Of a DNA stretch of 64,000 nt, positions 48,956-57,300 are shown in pieces (position 1 is the first letter of the stretch; every line of letters starts with the position of its first letter). The position numbers and the translations under genes were made by a program. The notes beneath the pieces were generated by a model. The model did not search any database and was not told the DNA's origin. It saw nothing but the letters and a program-made list of their open reading frames with translations. Source of the stretch: Pseudovirgaria hyperparasitica (Eukaryota); assembly GCA_010093815.1 (NCBI GenBank), contig ML996580.1. The stretch is one strand, 5' to 3'.

Positions 48956-49565
48956 ATGTTCCAAACATCATCTTCAATCATCTTCAGAAGATCAAGCTTG
49001 CTAAGAACAACTGCTCGTACAGTAGCCCGATCGACCGCCAGACAAGCATCCACAACAACGCCCTTTGCGCACCCACTAACAACACCGAGATCAACCCTCC
49101 CGAAACCACCACACACCTCCTCAACCCGTCTCTTCACCCAGACCTCCAAGATGAGTGGCAAGGAAGGCGTGCACAACCTCCAGAAGAAAGAGGACTGGGC
49201 CAAGGCCCTCGAGGAGAGCAAGGAGACCGTCCTCGTGCTCGACTGCTTCGCCACCTGGTGCGGACCCTGCAAGACCATTGCGCCGTTCGTCGTCAAGTAA
49301 GTCTCTCTCTCCTCCCCCTGTTGCATAGCCAGCATATATACAGCATATCTAACAATTGCCCCCCCAACATAGACTGTCCGAGAAGTACCCGACGGCCAAG
49401 TTCTACAAGATCGACGTCGACGAGCTTCCCGAAGTCGCCGAGGAACTCGAGATTCGCGCCATGCCGACATTCTTGATCTACAAGAACGGCGTCAAGCAGA
49501 CGCCCGTTGTCGGTGCTAACCCGTCTTCGCTCGAGAAGGCGGTTAAGGAGGCTGTGGAGGGATGA
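48956..49565 (+). CDS. TRX: Thioredoxin with an N-terminal mitochondrial-type presequence; second in-frame ATG at 49151; intron 49297-49372
   Basis: WCGPC active site, FYKIDVDE, AMPTF and VVGAN. The upstream 65 aa are R/S/T-rich with no acidic residues. Confidence 0.95.
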
Positions 49566-50584
49566 TGATGAAGATGATTACTTGTCCACGTGACTGGGAT
49601 TTTGTACGGTCTTCTTGATGGGACTGTGAGGCTGTGAGGGTGTGATACAGGCCGTATGTAGAGAAATACAAAGACTGTTGGCTTGATTGTTTGTTTGGAC
49701 CTGCGTAGTGCATACTTTGCTCCCTTGCTTCTTGCCCCTTCTTGCTTTTTTGCTATACATGTATGCGTAACATGCCATACCCCGTGTCATTTGATCTACC
49801 CGCACGCTCTCCCTCTATCAGTCTTATCTCCTCTCCTTCTCTCTCATCCCGAGCGAGCCCAGATCAACCTCCCCTAGAACGCCGCCCCCTTTCTAAACCC
49901 CATTTTGGGAGATAGAGATCCCATCTTCTGCTTTTGCTTTTACTTTTGCATTTGTCTTTCTTTTTTTTGCATTGTATAGTTGTGCATTCTTATATCTGCG
50001 GGGCTTATATGTAGTTCTATGTTGTTTATGATTAGTGGTGGGTGTAGGTGTACTCTTGAGAAGTGGGTAGGAAGGAGTTGGGAGTTGGGAGTGACAGGGT
50101 ATTGAAAAGTGGGGAGTGTGGAGTGAGGCGTGGGGTGTGAGGGTGTAAGAGGGTGTAAGATGGAGATGTACTTTGGTAGTGTTGGTGGTGGTTATGGTAG
50201 TAGTGGTGGTGGTGATATAAGGGGCTGAAGTAGCTTGTAGGCTGTGAGCTGTGAGATGCTAGGCTGTGAGCTGTGAGATGCTAGGCTGTGGGATCATGAG
50301 GAGTAGATGGTGCGGGGTATCATGGTGTGCTATGGCTTGAAGTGACATACCACATTCCTGAGTTGGATCTGTGATACGGATTCATAAAATTAAAACTGGT
50401 GGGGTTATGATATATCATATGATATGTGTTTGTGGTATGGATCTATGATATGGATTTATGATATGGATTTATGATATGTGTTTGTGATATGGATTTATGA
50501 AATGGAGTTATAATCTTGAGCTCAGTGTGTTTCTGATATAGATTCCATAATGCAAATTCCTAAATCCATCCCATCCCCTTAGGC

Positions 50585-50668
50585 CCCAATCCCCATCTCC
50601 CAATCCCCATCTCCCAATCCCCATCTCCCAATCCCCATCTCCCAATCCCCATCTCCCAATCCCCATCT
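50585..50668. repeat. 14-bp minisatellite (CCCAATCCCCATCT) x6
   Basis: Perfect tandem copies. Confidence 0.97.
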
Positions 50669-51030
50669 CCCCAATTTCACACTCTTACCAATCCACTCCC
50701 TATCATCTCCTGATTCCTTCCATTTTTCGAAGTGTGCCAGTCCTACTAGTAAGCAGGCTGTTTGACTTGCCATGTATAAATCTCGCCGATTCATGGGTTG
50801 ATGGATTGGTGGCTTTGGGAACTTCTTTGGAAACTTCTTTGGGAACTTGGGAAGAATGGGGAAGAAGAAGAATAGGGAAGAATGGGGTATGCGGTAGAAG
50901 GGTGTGCGTATGGATGGGAAGAGATGTCGTGGATTTGGGAGTATGACAGGTTTTGAATTGGAGGTTTGATGGGGTGTGTGTCTGTGGGTACTATTGGTGT
51001 CGGGTTGATTCAGGATCAAGTTCATGTTAA

Positions 51031-51110
51031 GCCGAGTCGAGTCGAGTCGAGTCGATTCAGTTTCAAGTCAAGTCGAGTAAAGTCGAGTCAAGCCAAGCCA
51101 AGCCAAGTCA
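51031..51110. repeat. Degenerate pentanucleotide array (GAGTC/AAGTC/AAGCC)n
   Basis: Directly visible tandem pentamers. Confidence 0.9.
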
Positions 51111-51493
51111 ATTATGCCGTGTTCATGGCCGTGGATCGTAGCTAGATACTCCAGATATTGGATTTGTGAGCGGAGGATCAAAGGCAAAGTAAGGGGTACA
51201 TGGACAAAGATAGAGACTGAGAGCAATGGACACGGAGGACACTAGTCGTGGACATTCTAGTGGTGATTCCAGTGGCAGTTCAAGCTCAAGTGTGCTTTAT
51301 GAGCTTGGGCTGCGTGTGCCTGATCTGTGAGGTCGTGTTTGAGTGTGGAGATGGGGTTGGTACATGGTACAGTTCAGGGCCAGGCTGCAATGGAACACTG
51401 CTTGCTGGCGAGCGCTTGTCGACGAGGGCTTGATGAGATGCATTAGGGCCAGATGGACTTGGTAATCACGCAGTGGAAAGCGTAAGGCGTTGG

Positions 51494-52900
51494 ACTTACC
51501 TGATTATACGCGCAACCTGAGTACAGTACGTGAAGAAGGACAGTATTTTGTCGTGTTATGGGCATGGACATGAACGTGGACATGGACGTTGGCTTGAACT
51601 TGGACATGGACGTTGGTTTGAACATGGAATGCAACAGAGGCAACAGGTAATGCAGTACCAGCAGGTTCAGACGCTCAAGATGTCACGCGCGAGGTGTCCC
51701 AGTAGCATGAGCGGTCATAGAATACAAGCTGAACAGTGACACACGTTGATAGGAGACATAGCAAGACAGGTCACTGACAAAGACGCAAAGTATGAGCGAG
51801 TATGATCTTTGTATTAATCATTGTATATACTACGAGAAGACATTCGCCAGAAATGAAGACAGAGAGCGAAGTTATTGCGATCAGAACCCAAGAAGCTTTA
51901 CCTCTAACCTACAGGAGAACAACGAGCAGCAAAGAATGTCTAAACCGCTCAAAGTCCTCCAGTAAGCCCTGACCATGAGTAGCATTTTTCTGGGTACCCA
52001 TAAGATGGGCATTCATCATCTCGCATGTGCTCAAAAGGAATCAATGAAGACTTACCAGTGGTATGTAAGATCTGCTATAAAAAGGAAGTGAGAAGTTAGC
52101 ACAAGCCGCAAAAAGGAGAAGGGTGTGTGGTGTGTTAGATCTGCAGTAAGGAGTGAGAACTTAGCATAGGCCATGAATAACATATGAGTTTCAGCATTTG
52201 TCTGTGGTGTGTGGGATCTGCCAAAATAAGGGAAAAGTTAGCAGGGGCCACGAGGGAGAGAAGACTTATCTGCATTCGGCATGTGTTTGAGGCGTGTGGG
52301 ATCTGCCATAAGAAGTGAGAAGTCAGCAGAGTCTATAGAGAAGGGAAGGGTATGTGGTGTGTTAGATCTGCCATAAGAAGTGGATGGAAACTTAGCATGT
52401 GTTTGAGGCGTGTGGGATCTGCCATAAGAAGTGAGAAGTTAGCAGAGATCATGACGAAGAGAAGAGTATGAGCAGGTGTAAGCATCAGTCAAAAATCAGA
52501 AAAAAGGGCAGTCCCTGACAGGGCGACCACCAACCAACAACATCCATTGGTCTTCAAGCCGACGTGAGCCAGCCGTCAGTAACCCAATTTTTTTGTGGAC
52601 AGGAACGAGGCGGCAATTGGTCAAAGTGAAACACTACAAAAGACAAACAATTGCAATCTCGAAACGAGACCCAAAACCAAAGAGAGAGGATGAATCATCA
52701 TGTGAGACTGGAGAATGGAGTGATGTGAAGTGTGATGGTTGAACTTACTTGAGTGGATCTGATGAAGAGCGGCGAGTGATGTATGAAGGGAAGTCTGGTG
52801 GTGGTCAGCCTTAGATGCTGACAGGAAGGAGAGAAGGAAAGCAGATGCCAGGAAGCGAAGCTGCTGTTGGAGCTGAATCCGGTTTGAAGCTGTGGGATGA
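51494..52900 (-). ncRNA. Putative spliced non-coding transcript (or very long spliced 5' leader)
   Basis: TATA box, ATG-less first exon, donor at 52748, acceptor array, and micro-exons 52056-52071, 51902-51908 and 51500-51516. No substantial ORF. Inferred from splice signals only. Confidence 0.4.
52050..52445 (-). repeat. Six imperfect tandem units, each resembling an intron 3' end (branch point, pyrimidine tract, GCAG|ATC)
   Basis: Plus-strand GATCTGC at 52069, 52138, 52215, 52300, 52365 and 52416. On the minus strand each is preceded by GCTAAC, GCTGAC or GCTAAG. Confidence 0.85.
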
Positions 52901-52932
52901 AGGAGGAAGAGATTTTTAGTAGGGGAGAATCT

Positions 52933-52940
52933 CTTATATA
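52933..52940 (-). promoter_or_regulatory. Candidate TATA box (TATATAAG) followed by a CT-rich start region
   Basis: The minus strand reads GTATATAAGAG..CTCTTCCTCCTTCATCCC. A GTAAGT donor follows at 52748. Confidence 0.5.
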
Positions 52941-53764
52941 CTTTTCCAGACAATCAGGGTCCTGATCCGTGCTTTCTCGCCTCTGGCAAGACATCGGCAG
53001 CTCTCTAGCGCTTCGAGTGTATAGGTGTAGCCAATGGGAGGGTGGCAGGAAGGGATGTGTAAGCAGGGAATGGGAGGATTGGGGGGTGAAGGACGAGGAC
53101 GGACGATGAGAGAGCTGGAAGCGATTTCTGGCGGCGGCAAAACGAGGCTGGACCGTCACAACCACGGGGGATTTTCACGTAGAAAGTAGATTCAGTTGTA
53201 GACATAGACCAGGGCTACAAGCCCGTATACTTTTATTGATAGAAGAAGACGTTGTCGTGGCGGCGTCGACGTGAGAGCGGATGAAATCGAGTTTGACAAA
53301 GTTGCCGCAGTGAAGACTATGATCCCACACTGAGTTTGCACATCATGAATTCGGGGATAACCACCATGAAAACTATATGCATCGCTTCGTCTATCTTGTA
53401 GCTAGCCCCTCATGATTTTCCCCTGAGGATATTATTTTGTTGTTGATGTCCAGTGGCCGGGGAGGTGTGAGGGCATGTGGAGGGCATTCGCGGCGTCGGG
53501 AGGACAGCTTGGGAGACCGGCGACAGGAAGGCTGCAGATGGCAATGCAAGACGGAATAGATGTATTATCCTACAGACAGTAAGCTATAGACAGATCCAGA
53601 CCTTCATTCGACGACAATATCTAGAGAATTCGTCGTCGTAGGGGCTGAAGACACTGCCGGGCGTGGACATACAATCCCACACCGTATAGTGGGCAAGGCC
53701 GACCTGCAATTTCGCACTTTGATATCGTCGTTCCACCCACCACGAACCTTCAACATTCCTTCAT

Positions 53765-53858
53765 CCCCAACACCACACGACAACCACCACCATCAACACC
53801 ACCACCAACAACAACAGCAACGACAACACCAACAACAACACCACCACCAACACCACCA
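53765..53858. repeat. Imperfect (CAA/CAC)n trinucleotide tract
   Basis: Visible immediately upstream of the ATG at 53859. Confidence 0.85.
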
Positions 53859-54146
53859 ATGGCTGCCAGCAGCCAAGCAACAGAGAGGGGGGAGAGGGCG
53901 CCACCAGTTGGCAAGGACCCCTCCTCTATCCAGCAATGGATAGAGGAGGTGGAGAGCGAAGAAGAAGAGGAAGAAGAAGAAGACGACGACGATGGGTCGC
54001 CGCAGGAGTCGGAGGGGGATGAGAATCCCACCGAAGACGAAGACGAAGAGGACTGTGCCTGGGACTGCTGTCGCTGCTCCTCCGAGGCACAGGAGGGGGA
54101 CTCCTGCGGTGCCTGTCAGCACGAGCGGTGTTTGGCGTGTCTTTGA
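53859..54146 (+). CDS. Small acidic protein with C-terminal double zinc-ribbon-like motif
   Basis: 95 aa. An E/D tract followed by WDCCRC-x9-CGACQHERCLAC. Confidence 0.7.
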   Translation: MAASSQATERGERAPPVGKDPSSIQQWIEEVESEEEEEEEEDDDDGSPQESEGDENPTEDEDEEDCAWDCCRCSSEAQEGDSCGACQHERCLACL

Positions 54147-54366
54147 TACCCATACCTGACGCAAGTAAGTAAACTCCAGACATATCCAAGGACTAGCACC
54201 GAGCAGTAGACACACAGAAACACATGAGGAAAGGGAATAGTACAAGGGTGGAACCTTACAGTCTCCATAGCTATCAAAGGGAAAGCCAATTCCGCCAGGA
54301 ATTGAGCCTACATCCCTGGCATACCACACGAACTTGAAGCAGTTCTATCAGTCATCGATTGCTAAT

Positions 54367-57300
54367 TCACAAATTCGCTCTAGGCTTTCCCATCGTCGTA
54401 CGTCTTCTTCGTTGTTTCTTGTCCGGCTCCGGGCCCAGCGGGGCCACCGGTTTGGCGGCGGCAGCAGCATCGTCAAACAACTGCTGACCACAAATCTCGA
54501 CCAGTGCCAGTACACGTGTTTGCACCGTCGCCCCGTCTCGCCTGTTCTTCCTAAAAAAAAAATCAGTAAAAGTACCGTGGGCAATTCCGCTCACATACCC
54601 TTCTCTCCTACTCTGCGAAATCATCTCCGCCCAGTCCCACAGCTTGCCCTTCGCCAGAATACGACCAGTCTTGGGGTCGCGAGAGGGCCTCCAGTCGTCA
54701 GCAAGTCTCAGCGTTGGCGGGACTTTCGAGTCTTTCGTCTTCGCTGACGATACTATAATCCCCTCTTCCTCAAAGCGTTGATAGGCGTTTTTGAGCGTCT
54801 CCTTATTCACAGCCTCAAAATACGACAGGTCGCCCTGATGGTATAACGTCTTGCCGAGCTAGAAAAGGAGGAAACGTCAGGCAAACAGATCTTCACACAC
54901 ACACAACGCTACACCACAGCACAAACATAAGAATCGTGAGACATACCAGTTGTGCTTGATCCTGTACCTTCTTCGTCTCGAGCCAGACCTGCGACGATGC
55001 AATAGGGGGCGTGAGCATTATAAGACTCACGGCACCCAGCCAACTCGCCTCAATGAATGGCCAGATCAAGAAACAGTAGAAATCGAAATTTTCGCGGCCC
55101 CTCTCTCGTTCCCTCTCGCTCAGCTCAACGAAGCGGATCTCACCTTGCGGTAGCGCTGAGAGCTCAGAAGCACCATCTGATGGAGCCACAGGAGATGGCC
55201 CATCACGAACAACAGTCACCACATCGTCATTTTCGAGAGAGCGAATAGTCTTGCCCAAGTTGGCCTCGAGACCTTCCGTTGGGAAAATGAACTCGCCGCG
55301 GAAGAGCTGCATACTACATTAGATACTGGCAAGAGCTGTAAACATGCAGGAAGACGACATACCTGAGAAAGAAAGTACACATGATCACGCAACTCCGTGT
55401 AGGAGATCCTCTGTTCTTGACGCCCGCCGCCCTGCTTGACACGTATATACATGCTAGCACTGGTAAGAGCCTGGAGAATGAAGAGATGGATCGTCATATT
55501 GCGGTAGAATGAGAGCTGGAACCTGAGCATCATCAGCAAGGCATTCCAAACGTGCGCTGGCAAAAACAGCATACCTGTCGACTGCGTAGTATGTATCTTC
55601 AGGCAGTCCTTGGACGACACCAACAAGATCAGCACCAAGAACATCTAATCCTCTCTCAACGACGACACTTGTTGGCAGACCCGAGAAATGTGCAACACGA
55701 CCTCCTTGAGAACGCACACGGTCGCTTAGCCATTCGACACGACGTATCAATTCTGATTTCCCAACACCACGACCTCTCAGGGTCAAGAGTACGGTGCCGA
55801 TCAAGGCCGTAGGCATCACAACAGACACTTCATTGATCTCCGACAGGACACGGTACCCCAGAGTTCTTAGAAGACGGAGCCTCGTCTCCTTATCATCGAT
55901 ACGCTTAGGCATCTTGCTGTAGCGTGCGATTTGCTGATCAATGAAACCCCTCAAACTCCACGGCTCATGAAAGCGAACATCGACACGTCCAAGTTTGAGC
56001 GAGAGGATTGAAGATGCAGACAGGAAGTCCATCAGGTTCTCTTTTTGCTTCGGCTGCCCGAGGAGCTCACTTATATATGAACTGAAGAGCACGATCAGCA
56101 CCAATTGAGTCGCTATACCCGCGAGATGAGCACTTACTCTACTTCAATGACTTTGTCATACTGCGTGCTGACAGGACATATTATGGTGTCCTTGACACGA
56201 CCAGACAGTACACTATCGAGGATATAGCTGAGCACACCGAATTTAGGAGGAAGAAGCTTTCCGGTTCTCGAGCGCCCGCCCTCTGTATCTTATTAGCAGG
56301 TGCATTTGCATTCATGCGAGATCATCCTACTCACCAACAAAACATTCGAAGTTGAAACCATCCTGAAGCAATACGTCGATATAGGCTTGCACCATCGTAA
56401 CGTAGAGCTGATCGTCACCAAAGCTCCTGCGAATCCACATAGCGCCTACAGGGATAATTGTGTCAGCTCACATGTCTCTCATATTCATGCTTTGGCAACA
56501 GTCCAATAAGTTCTGATACACACGACTCTCCACGCAGCACTCATGAACGCCACCATGAAGTCTGCCTCCAGGAGTACCAATGCTGTTTCCTTCAAATCAA
56601 ATCGAACAATGTACATTGGCTACACATGCCACCGCATGTATCGTAACAATGAGGACTTCGCCATGCGACAGGCATACTGAGAGATGGTCAACTTACCTGC
56701 ATGCTGCAGAAATGTTCCAACAAGAGGAAAATTCAAGTTGTCGCCAGCTACCACGGTTGGAAGCGCAAGCCCAAGCCGATAACAGACCAATTGCAACGAG
56801 ACGTAGTCAACGTGTGATCTATGACAAGGCAGGAACACAATCGACTGCTTATTCTTGGCCGCCTCTGTAGCCACTGCTCGTAGACGAAGGACCTCCTCGC
56901 TGGACACATGGATGCCTGTCTCAGATCAGCCCTGTACAGCCATGTCACAACACAGTATCATGGACATTTATCTGACCTTGATGGTATGCCCTCGTCAACA
57001 GCTGTGTCGCCAGATAGTAGGCCCCACGGATAAAGCTTTTACTCTCCATCTTGCAAATCATATTATCCGTAATATCCTCCGCAACCTCTCTGATCTGCTC
57101 GCCAATCTCTTGCCTCCTCCTGGCGCGATCCTTCTTCCCCAGAGTCCCTTGCTCAATCTCAACATCCACTCTTCCGCCCGCAAGTTTCGCGATTCTCTCT
57201 TGTACCCGCACATCCTGCATCACCCGGTTCTTCATCCGCTCGCTGAAGCCAGAGTAGAAAATTGGCTGACCCACGATCGAGTCGTATGATCGCCACCCGG

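What the first reader, a model, noticed from the sequence alone, without database searches (positions are those of the whole stretch)
52050..52445. Tandem array of six intron 3' ends (branch point plus acceptor) with only one intact donor
Seen in sequence: six units spaced 51-85 bp apart read on the minus strand GCTRA(C/G)-pyrimidine tract-GCAG|ATC(C/T)...ACA. Four have canonical branch sites (GCTAAC or GCTGAC) and two have GCTAAG. Only the last unit is followed by a real donor (16-nt exon 52071-52056, then GTAAGTCTTC). One internal unit carries the dead look-alike ATAAGTCTTC (52269). The splice-signal part is the best-conserved part of the repeat while the spacers diverge. Inference: either a serially duplicated micro-exon/intron unit now acting as a ladder of alternative 3' splice sites for the donor at 52748, or an RNA presenting many branch-point/U2AF-type sites, for example a decoy or sensor of splicing-factor levels. 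I know no named element of this form.
Basis: partly seen in the sequence, partly recalled or inferred. Interest (0 to 1): 0.78.

Follow-up and report, generated by a model that had tools for sequence, protein, structure and literature searches.

The report
Duplicated splice acceptors in noncoding RNA
A short stretch holding the end of an intron was copied six times in a row inside a small non-coding fungal gene; the assembled RNA uses the first copy and carries the other five along as exon, so it looks like a curiosity of gene evolution, not a new kind of element.

Summary
Six units of GCTRA(C/G)–pyrimidine tract–GCAG|ATCY lie on the minus strand, 51–85 bp apart, and nowhere else in the 64-kb window (0.05 expected by chance). 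They belong to a small TATA-driven gene on the minus strand. Assembled cDNA-like contigs from two runs of one sample join donor 52748 to the first acceptor, so the exon resumes at 52418. The contigs then read on unspliced through units 2–6 and through the GTAAGTCTTC at 52055, to 51827 in X1 and 52020 in X2. The spliced RNA has no ATG-started ORF above 46 codons. Near its 3' end sits the only C/D-box-like element in the window: 52025–51876, with a 5-bp terminal stem and a structured fold. It matches no Rfam family.

My best reading is serial tandem duplication of an intron-end/exon-start segment in the weakly constrained leader of a non-coding transcript, possibly a snoRNA precursor. Splicing takes the first intact branch point and AG, and copies 2–6 are exonic relics. 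A ladder of alternative acceptors at low frequency is not excluded, because contigs drop rare forms. The decoy idea has no support. No relatives could be compared. Interest is modest.

The parts
52933..52940 (-). TATA box (TATATAAG) of the non-coding gene
   Evidence: Sequence. It lies 43-50 nt upstream of 52890, where both RNA contigs end.
52749..52890 (-). Exon 1 (142 nt) as covered by contigs. Its last bases read CAG|ATCCACTCAA|GTAAGT, which resembles a unit.
   Evidence: records 2 and 5, with 0 other letters. Sequence.
52419..52748 (-). Intron 1, 330 nt, GTAAGT...GCTAAC-N18-CAG. It holds ATGATGA at 52701-52695, 47 nt from the donor, and its 3' end is unit 1 of the array.
   Evidence: The joint 52418/52749 skips 330 nt with CT..AC ends in X1 and X2. 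Splice ends, motifs.
52395..52470 (-). Unit 1 with its upstream repeat part. Branch word GCTAAC 52443-52438, AG 52420-52419. This is the acceptor seen in use.
52344..52394 (-). Unit 2 (GCTAAG, AG before 52367), exonic in the contigs
52279..52343 (-). Unit 3 (GCTGAC, AG before 52302). Its core is 97% identical to unit 1. Exonic in the contigs.
52260..52269 (-). ATAAGTCTTC, a donor look-alike with A at +1. With unit 4 it outlines a 52-nt mini-intron relic.
52194..52278 (-). Unit 4 (GCTAAC, AG before 52217), exonic in the contigs
52117..52193 (-). Unit 5 (GCTAAG, AG before 52140), exonic in the contigs
52046..52116 (-). Unit 6 (GCTAAC, AG before 52071), then 16 nt, then GTAAGTCTTC (52055-52046). 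Both contigs read through it.
51876..52025 (-). C/D-box-like RNA candidate, 150 nt: TGCGA-G-ATGATGA ... CTGA-TCGCA. C box 52019-52013, D box 51884-51881.
   Evidence: It is the only hit of a C/D scan in the window, against 0.07 expected. Fold -56.2 kcal/mol, z -3.29, 0 of 200 shuffles as stable, and the terminal stem forms. The X1 contig covers it. No Rfam family matches.
51827..52418 (-). Exon 2 as covered by the longest contig (592 nt)
   Evidence: record 2. The X2 record 5 stops at 52020.

Best explanation
The array is the junction region of a small, TATA-driven, spliced non-coding gene on the minus strand, in what looks like a filamentous ascomycete. A segment of about 50-85 bp spanning an intron 3' end (branch point, pyrimidine tract, AG) and the first bases of the next exon was duplicated in tandem several times. 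The ATAAGTCTTC and GTAAGTCTTC relics suggest that the ancestral unit was a whole mini-intron plus micro-exon. In the RNA seen, the donor at 52748 pairs with the first intact branch point/AG downstream (unit 1). Units 2-6 have no upstream donor of their own and ride along as exon sequence. The RNA has no credible ORF. Its likely product is the 150-nt C/D-box-like RNA close to its 3' end. On that reading the array sits in a disposable leader under little sequence constraint, where duplications can pile up. Shown: the units, the transcript, the junction, and the read-through of units 2-6 and of the 52055 GTAAGT. Inferred: origin by tandem duplication, lack of function of copies 2-6, and the snoRNA-like nature of the 3' element.
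For: There are six units and no other copy in the window (sub-patterns). Core identities among units are 62-97%, and units 1 and 3 match at 88% over 76 nt, showing repeated duplication of different ages; contigs of 734 nt (X1) and 541 nt (X2) lie on 52890-52749 plus 52418-51827 or 52418-52020 with 0 other letters. The only joint listed in this gene is 52749|52418 (GT..AG on the minus strand). All 7 joints listed in the 7-kb stretch have GT..AG ends on the strand of their gene, so the runs behave as cDNA; the six RNA-verified neighbouring introns are 48-104 nt long. Five of them show a CTRAY-type word about 10-20 nt before the AG (my reading of the printed 3' ends), so unit 1 is a standard acceptor for this genome; the longest ATG-started ORF of the spliced RNA is 46 codons. 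Pfam gave no family above its cut-off for 6 ORFs; there is a single C/D-like hit in the window (0.07 expected), it lies on the sense strand inside this transcript, and it has a closing stem and z -3.29. Literature, from passages and sections read. In fungal non-coding snoRNA host genes, serial intron 3' ends behind a single working donor are described as 'complex introns', and the ESTs are compatible with one donor choosing among acceptors (PMC3596301, section 8). In Neurospora crassa, 45 of 55 C/D snoRNAs are intronic, 9 are intergenic with their own promoter and 1 is exonic, and host RNAs have only short ORFs and alternative 3' splice sites (PMC2780460). 64 of 75 N. crassa snoRNAs were absent from Rfam 12.3 (PMC5824354).
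Against: Contigs drop rare variants, and X1 and X2 are one sample of one study, so use of acceptors 2-6 under other conditions or at low level is untested. GCAG|ATC is invariant in 6 of 6 units while the cores are only 62-97% alike. That could mean constraint or gene conversion and not neutral relics. The C/D-like element is long at 150 nt, has no clear internal D'/C' boxes by eye, matches no Rfam family and has no homologue found (one search gave one chance hit). Its guide could not be tested against rRNA. The element lies 30 nt after a consensus donor (52055), and 46 nt before a pyrimidine-rich CGTAG (51834-51830; the AG is at 51831-51830). That geometry fits an intronic snoRNA better than an exonic one. 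No related genome could be compared, so neither the age nor the conservation of the array is known.
Confidence: 0.6

Rival explanations
1. A working ladder of alternative 3' splice sites. The single donor at 52748 can pair with any of the four to six acceptors, giving isoforms with leaders shortened by 51-347 nt. The contigs show only the commonest form.
For: Units 3, 4 and 6 keep consensus GCTGAC or GCTAAC about 20 nt before an invariant CAG. Fungal snoRNA host RNAs are reported to use alternative 3' splice sites and possibly one donor with several acceptors (PMC2780460 passages; PMC3596301 section 8). Contigs cannot show absence (notes).
Against: Only the joint to 52418 was listed, in both runs. 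One unbroken contig runs from exon 1 through all the units. Since the RNA is non-coding, the isoforms would differ only in a leader with no evident role.
Confidence: 0.2
2. A decayed multi-intron snoRNA host gene that is still spliced further. The GTAAGT at 52055 is a live donor, the C/D-like RNA lies in a second intron (52055 to the AG at 51831-51830), and the contigs are a partly processed, intron-retaining form.
For: A consensus GTAAGT lies 30 nt before the C/D-like element. After it come AATAAC, a pyrimidine-rich tract and CGTAG, with the AG 46 nt downstream, which is the usual geometry of intronic snoRNAs (distances for N. crassa in PMC2780460 passages). The longest contig ends 3 nt after that AG.
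Against: Both contigs read through 52055 without a joint. No contig joins 52056 to anything downstream. A contig ending a few bases after some YAG is not unlikely by chance.
Confidence: 0.12
3. An RNA that displays many branch-point/U2AF-type sites in its exon, as a decoy or sensor for splicing factors or as a nuclear-retention platform that keeps the precursor in the nucleus.
For: Five branch point/pyrimidine/AG modules are present in the spliced RNA. The array is G-poor (12% G) and shows no special folding (z -0.73), so the sites would be accessible. GCAG|ATC is invariant.
Against: There is no direct evidence. Two of the five exonic units have the off-consensus GCTAAG. The conserved core extends as far into the 'exon' part as into the splice signal, which selection on factor binding does not predict. 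No relatives are available to show conservation.
Confidence: 0.05
4. A DNA-level minisatellite or protein-binding repeat, or a terminus of a dispersed element, that only by accident reads like splice signals.
For: The region 50000-52000 just below the gene is full of micro- and minisatellites. The conserved core straddles the AG and does not track the splice signal alone.
Against: Unit 1 is the acceptor actually used, so the splice-signal reading is correct for at least one copy. No copy lies elsewhere in the window on either strand.
Confidence: 0.03

Closest known systems
'Complex introns' of fungal polycistronic snoRNA host genes (intron-intron-intron without intercalating exons; Luo et al. 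2013, PMC3596301, sections 5 and 8 read)
   Same: Both are non-coding, spliced fungal transcripts with several intron 3' ends in series behind a single working donor. In the ESTs the first intron is always removed first, which is compatible with one donor choosing among acceptors.
   Different: There, each sub-intron carries a snoRNA and the arrangement arose by deletion of internal exons. Here the units are only 51-85 nt, carry no C/D motif pair, are clearly tandem duplicates of one another, and only the first acceptor is seen in use.
UHG/GAS5-like non-coding snoRNA host genes and independently transcribed snoRNA genes of Neurospora crassa (Liu et al. 2009, PMC2780460, passages read)
   Same: A Pol II-type promoter, a spliced RNA with only short ORFs, a C/D-type element in the transcript, and alternative 3' splice sites known in such hosts.
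   Different: The C/D-like element here matches no described family and lies in what the contigs show as exon. No snoRNA is demonstrated in the one spliced intron.
Splice-site creation or multiplication by tandem genomic duplication (intron gain by duplication; listed, e.g. PMC3265369 and PMC4974935, search listing and abstracts only)
   Same: A short tandem duplication that includes splice signals yields extra, potentially usable splice sites.
   Different: Those cases duplicate an exonic AGGT segment once and create a new intron in a coding gene. Here an acceptor region is multiplied about six-fold in a non-coding RNA and creates no new intron in the RNA seen.
Introner-like elements of fungi (PMC4457414, search listing and abstract only)
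   Same: Repeated sequence that carries splice signals.
   Different: Introner-like elements are complete introns dispersed through many genes. These units lack donors, are tandem, and have no other copy in the window.

Membership tests
Box C/D snoRNA (for 52025-51876) | C box RUGAUGA near the 5' end and D box CUGA near the 3' end | tested here: met
   ATGATGA at 52019-52013 and CTGA at 51884-51881.
Box C/D snoRNA (for 52025-51876) | Terminal stem of 4-5 bp bringing the C and D boxes together | tested here: met
   TGCGA/TCGCA, 5 Watson-Crick pairs. It is the only such C/D arrangement in the window, with 0.07 expected, and the stem is present in the MFE and centroid folds.
Box C/D snoRNA (for 52025-51876) | Antisense element of 10 nt or more, complementary to rRNA or snRNA, ending next to D or D' | not testable with these tools
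A string search of papers gave only unrelated primers.
Box C/D snoRNA (for 52025-51876) | Homology to a described snoRNA family | tested here: not met
   Rfam 15 gave nothing at gathering scores and only chance-level hits at E up to 10. The metagenome pattern scan gave one chance hit. Many fungal snoRNAs were missing from Rfam 12.3 (PMC5824354 passage).
Box C/D snoRNA (for 52025-51876) | Accumulates as a stable small RNA bound by fibrillarin/Nop56/Nop58/Snu13 | not testable with these tools
   Only assembled contigs were available.
Non-coding snoRNA host gene (UHG/GAS5-like) | Spliced Pol II transcript without a long ORF | tested here: met
   Joint 52749|52418. The longest ATG-started ORF is 46 codons. 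No Pfam family above its cut-off.
Non-coding snoRNA host gene (UHG/GAS5-like) | The snoRNA lies inside a spliced intron | tested here: inconclusive
   Intron 1 has ATGATGA 47 nt from the donor but no D box with a terminal stem, and its folds are unremarkable. The C/D-like element lies in sequence that the contigs keep.
Complex intron (serial introns without exons, PMC3596301) | Several intron 3' ends in series with no donor between them | tested here: met
   There is no GTAAGT between 52743 and 52055. Six branch point/AG modules are present.
Complex intron (serial introns without exons, PMC3596301) | Each serial intron carries a snoRNA | tested here: not met
   The units are 51-85 nt. There is no ATGATGA between 52695 and 52019.
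Complex intron (serial introns without exons, PMC3596301) | cDNAs show stepwise removal or use of the later acceptors | tested here: inconclusive
   Only the first acceptor is joined in the contigs of one sample, and contigs drop rare forms.
Dispersed intron-like or transposon-derived repeat | Copies at many loci, on either strand | tested here: inconclusive
   There are no copies outside the array in the 64-kb window. No whole genome is held.

The most novel reading that the evidence does not exclude
The five acceptor-like modules kept in the spliced RNA are functional. By binding branch-point-binding protein/SF1 and U2AF without a partner donor, they would hold the precursor in the nucleus, or titrate these factors, so that the 3' C/D-like RNA is processed rather than exported. 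Alternatively they would offer a regulated ladder of acceptors. That would make this an RNA built from serial 'half introns', a form not described as such in the papers I searched.
Probability: 0.07. Interest if true: 0.65.

Novelty: new variant of a known kind. Interest (0 to 1): 0.3.

Why it matters
If the main reading holds, the locus is a clean natural example of two things. First, tandem duplication can multiply a splice acceptor. Second, a short-intron fungal spliceosome resolves the resulting ambiguity by taking the first competent branch point and AG. It also adds an unannotated spliced non-coding gene with a candidate C/D RNA to this genome. This is useful for annotation and as a small natural experiment in 3' splice-site choice, but it does not open a new field. 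Only if the exonic copies turned out to bind splicing factors, or to be used in a regulated way, would it become a notable new RNA design.

Tried and rejected
- **Whole genome:** not held, so copy number outside the window is unknown.
- **Sequencing runs:** no RNA holder is listed. The two holders, X1 and X2, are of unrecorded kind and come from one sample and one study. They were laid anyway and behave as cDNA.
- **Parts without cover:** the bins 51106-51807 and 52978-53211, and the intron stretch 52419-52509 beyond the main contig. These are not used as evidence. In particular, the lack of cover below 51827 does not prove an RNA 3' end or the absence of a third exon.
- **Extra depth in intron 1:** X1 shows a mean word depth of 2.92 in bin 52510-52743, which hints at a further contig that was not shown.
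- **Rfam:** nothing at gathering scores in the whole window. At E up to 10, only sub-threshold chance-level hits appeared: snoZ159 at 19.7 bits against a gathering score of 39, some miRNA hairpins, and a group II fragment on the + strand.
- **Folds:** intron 1 gave z 0.36, its C-box region z -0.46 and the array z -0.73, so none is special.
- **Metagenome pattern scan:** the search for C box, gap, guide plus D box returned one locus, L001. The sequence between the motifs is unlike the window and looks like a coding strand with acidic repeats. I took it as the roughly one chance hit expected by my own rough estimate.
- **Earlier findings of this scan:** none by place, sequence or words.
- **Paper search for the guide or target string:** three unrelated papers.
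- **Coding readings of the array:** rejected. The unit lengths (51, 65, 85, 77, 69) do not keep a reading frame, ATG-started ORFs reach at most 46 codons, and the only Pfam hit, at 14.2 bits against a cut-off of 24, was below threshold.
- **Promoter motifs shared with ribosomal-protein or snoRNA genes:** the paper read (PMC4138321, passages) reports no motif shared by snoRNA and ribosomal-protein genes for Neurospora or Aspergillus, so this was dropped.
- **Supplementary tables of the snoRNA papers:** these may list sequences and targets of Pezizomycotina snoRNAs, but they were closed.

Full report
**1. What is in the sequence**

On the minus strand between 52470 and 52046 there is a tandem array. 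Each unit reads: branch-site word, pyrimidine tract, GCAG, then ATC(C/T)nACA. A composite pattern, GCT[AG]A[CG]-N12-24-GCAGATC[CT], hits six times, all inside the array, and nowhere else on either strand of the 64-kb window. 200 block shuffles gave a mean of 0.05 hits. Sub-patterns behave the same way:
- 5 matches against 0.53 expected for the branch-site/tract part.
- 2 matches against 0 expected for the 26-mer.
- 4 matches in the array plus one chance 3-mismatch hit elsewhere for the AG/'exon' part.

The positions after each AG are 52418, 52367, 52302, 52217, 52140 and 52071, giving spacings of 51, 65, 85, 77 and 69. The branch words are GCTAAC in three units, GCTGAC in one and GCTAAG in two. 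ATAAGTCTTC is at 52269-52260 and GTAAGTCTTC at 52055-52046.

Two refinements apply.
- The conserved core straddles the AG, from about -25 to +14. GCAG|ATC is invariant in 6 of 6 units, and some 'exon' columns are invariant as well, whereas the branch word varies in 3 of 6. What is conserved is therefore the repeat core, not specifically the splice signal.
- The repeat is larger than stated. 52395-52470 matches 52279-52354 at 88% over 76 nt, a 116-bp higher-order unit. A possible seventh, decayed copy with CTG for CAG lies inside the intron at about 52506-52450, but its scores are borderline against shuffles. The end of exon 1 (CAG|ATCCACTCAA|GTAAGT) also resembles a unit by eye.

Ungapped core identities range from 62% to 97%, so the copies are of different ages.

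**2. What the RNA shows**

No run on record as RNA was listed. The two holders, X1 and X2, come from one sample of one study and their kind is unrecorded. When laid on 49000-56000 they behave as cDNA. All 7 joints listed have GT..AG ends on the strand of the gene concerned: one in a thioredoxin-like gene on the + strand, five in a GPAT-like gene on the minus strand, and one in the locus of interest.

In the locus of interest, both runs give a contig that covers 52890-52749, skips 330 nt (CT..AC on the + strand, so GT..AG on the minus strand) and resumes at 52418. The contig continues without any further joint to 51827 in X1 (734 nt) or 52020 in X2 (541 nt), with 0 differing letters. This establishes four things:
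- There is minus-strand transcription.
- The donor at 52748 is real.
- That donor is joined to the acceptor of unit 1.
- In this RNA form, units 2-6 and the GTAAGTCTTC at 52055 are exon sequence; in the X1 contig the sequence beyond, down to 51827, is as well.

Both contigs end at 52890, which is 43-50 nt below a TATATAAG at 52940-52933, so a TATA-driven start site there is likely. Contigs drop rare variants and cannot show ends or expression levels. Minor isoforms therefore remain possible, and 51827 is not a proven 3' end.

**3. What kind of gene it is**

The spliced RNA has no ATG-started ORF longer than 46 codons. The unit lengths do not keep a reading frame, and six ORF translations gave no Pfam family above its cut-off. 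So the gene is non-coding.

Intron 1 is 330 nt, against 48-104 nt for the six neighbouring introns verified by the same contigs. Five of those six show a CTRAY-type word roughly 10-20 nt before the AG in the printed 3' ends, which is my reading of that output. Unit 1 is therefore a standard acceptor for this genome, and units 3, 4 and 6 look equally competent.

I scanned the whole window for C/D-box RNA geometry: RTGATGA, then CTGA 50-200 nt on, with at least 4 Watson-Crick pairs flanking. There was exactly one hit, minus strand 52025-51876, 150 nt, with the stem TGCGA/TCGCA. 200 shuffles gave a mean of 0.07 hits. The hit lies on the sense strand inside this transcript. It folds with the terminal stem closed and a structured interior (-56.2 kcal/mol, z -3.29, 0 of 200 shuffles as stable). 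It matches no Rfam family, is long for a C/D RNA, and its guide could not be tested because no rRNA is available here.

Intron 1 carries ATGATGA 47 nt from the donor, a typical distance for intronic snoRNAs in Neurospora (PMC2780460, passage). However, it has no D box with a stem and no unusual fold, so I make no claim for it.

**4. How it most likely works**

The simplest account is serial tandem duplication of a segment that spans the intron 3' end and the exon start. The ATAAGTCTTC after unit 3 and the GTAAGTCTTC after unit 6 suggest that the original unit was a mini-intron plus micro-exon whose donors have since been lost or mutated. With one live donor upstream, the spliceosome takes the first intact branch point and AG. 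If the decayed copy inside the intron is real, it is skipped because its AG is gone. The later copies have no donor to pair with and stay in the exon.

That such duplications persist fits a leader under little sequence constraint, as expected if the useful product is the C/D-like RNA near the 3' end. I put this reading at about 0.6.

The rivals are:
- A real but minor or conditional ladder of alternative acceptors (0.2).
- A second, still active intron from 52055 to the AG at 51831-51830, with the C/D-like RNA inside it and the contigs as an intron-retaining form (0.12). The geometry favours this, but the read-through contigs do not.
- A splicing-factor decoy or nuclear-retention platform (0.05).
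- A DNA-level or dispersed repeat (0.03).

**5. Comparison with what is known**

The nearest described thing is the 'complex intron' of fungal polycistronic snoRNA host genes. There, several introns lie in series without exons between them, and the ESTs fit either stepwise removal or one donor choosing among acceptors (PMC3596301, sections 5 and 8 read). The present array shares the one-donor, many-acceptor layout and the non-coding host context. It differs in three respects: its units are tandem duplicates, they are only 51-85 nt long, and they carry no snoRNA. Only the first acceptor is seen in use.

It also resembles the UHG-like hosts and the independently transcribed snoRNA genes of Neurospora (PMC2780460, passages read), and splice-site multiplication by tandem duplication (listings and abstracts only). 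It does not behave like an introner-type dispersed element within this window. Four paper searches turned up no description of a six-fold tandem acceptor array. That is a limited search and does not prove there is none in print.

**6. Verdict**

I rate it a new variant of a known kind and of modest interest (0.3).

The main gaps are the lack of any related genome and of read-level or small-RNA data. These are needed to tell relic copies from functional ones and to confirm the C/D-like RNA.

Noticed in passing
window 49089-49682 (+): A thioredoxin-like gene, named from the ORF translations, with one 76-nt GT..AG intron (49297-49372). The same contigs verify the intron.
   Followed up: partly
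window 53250-56143 and beyond (-): A glycerol-3-phosphate acyltransferase-like gene. The Atlas features give GPAT_C at 0.96, with Ascomycota the commonest taxon. It has five short introns verified by contigs. Its contig ends at 53250, about 360 nt upstream of the start of the non-coding gene on the same strand.
   Followed up: partly
window 50074-51628: A dense run of micro- and minisatellites between the thioredoxin-like gene and the non-coding gene, for example a perfect 14-mer repeated 6.2 times at 50585-50671 and a 13-mer repeated 7.2 times at 50418-50511. GC skew is strong over 50001-54000.
   Followed up: no
window 50179-50211: Contigs of both runs match only this 33-nt low-complexity stretch and run on unlike the window on both sides (table 7). 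It is probably a similar repeat in another transcript.
   Followed up: no
window 52510-52743 (-): X1 shows extra mean word depth of 2.92 in this bin inside intron 1, apart from the main contig. The piece was not shown. The bin includes the ATGATGA at 52701-52695 and the CTGA at 52579-52576. It might be unspliced precursor or a stable intron-derived RNA.
   Followed up: partly
window 51903-51972 (-): The interior of the C/D-like element forms a long imperfect hairpin that draws sub-threshold hits to miRNA-precursor models. This is taken as a generic hairpin resemblance.
   Followed up: no
window 51494-51499 (-): A further GTAAGT follows a short ORF-like stretch below the end of the longest contig. 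It has no contig cover and its meaning is unknown.
   Followed up: no
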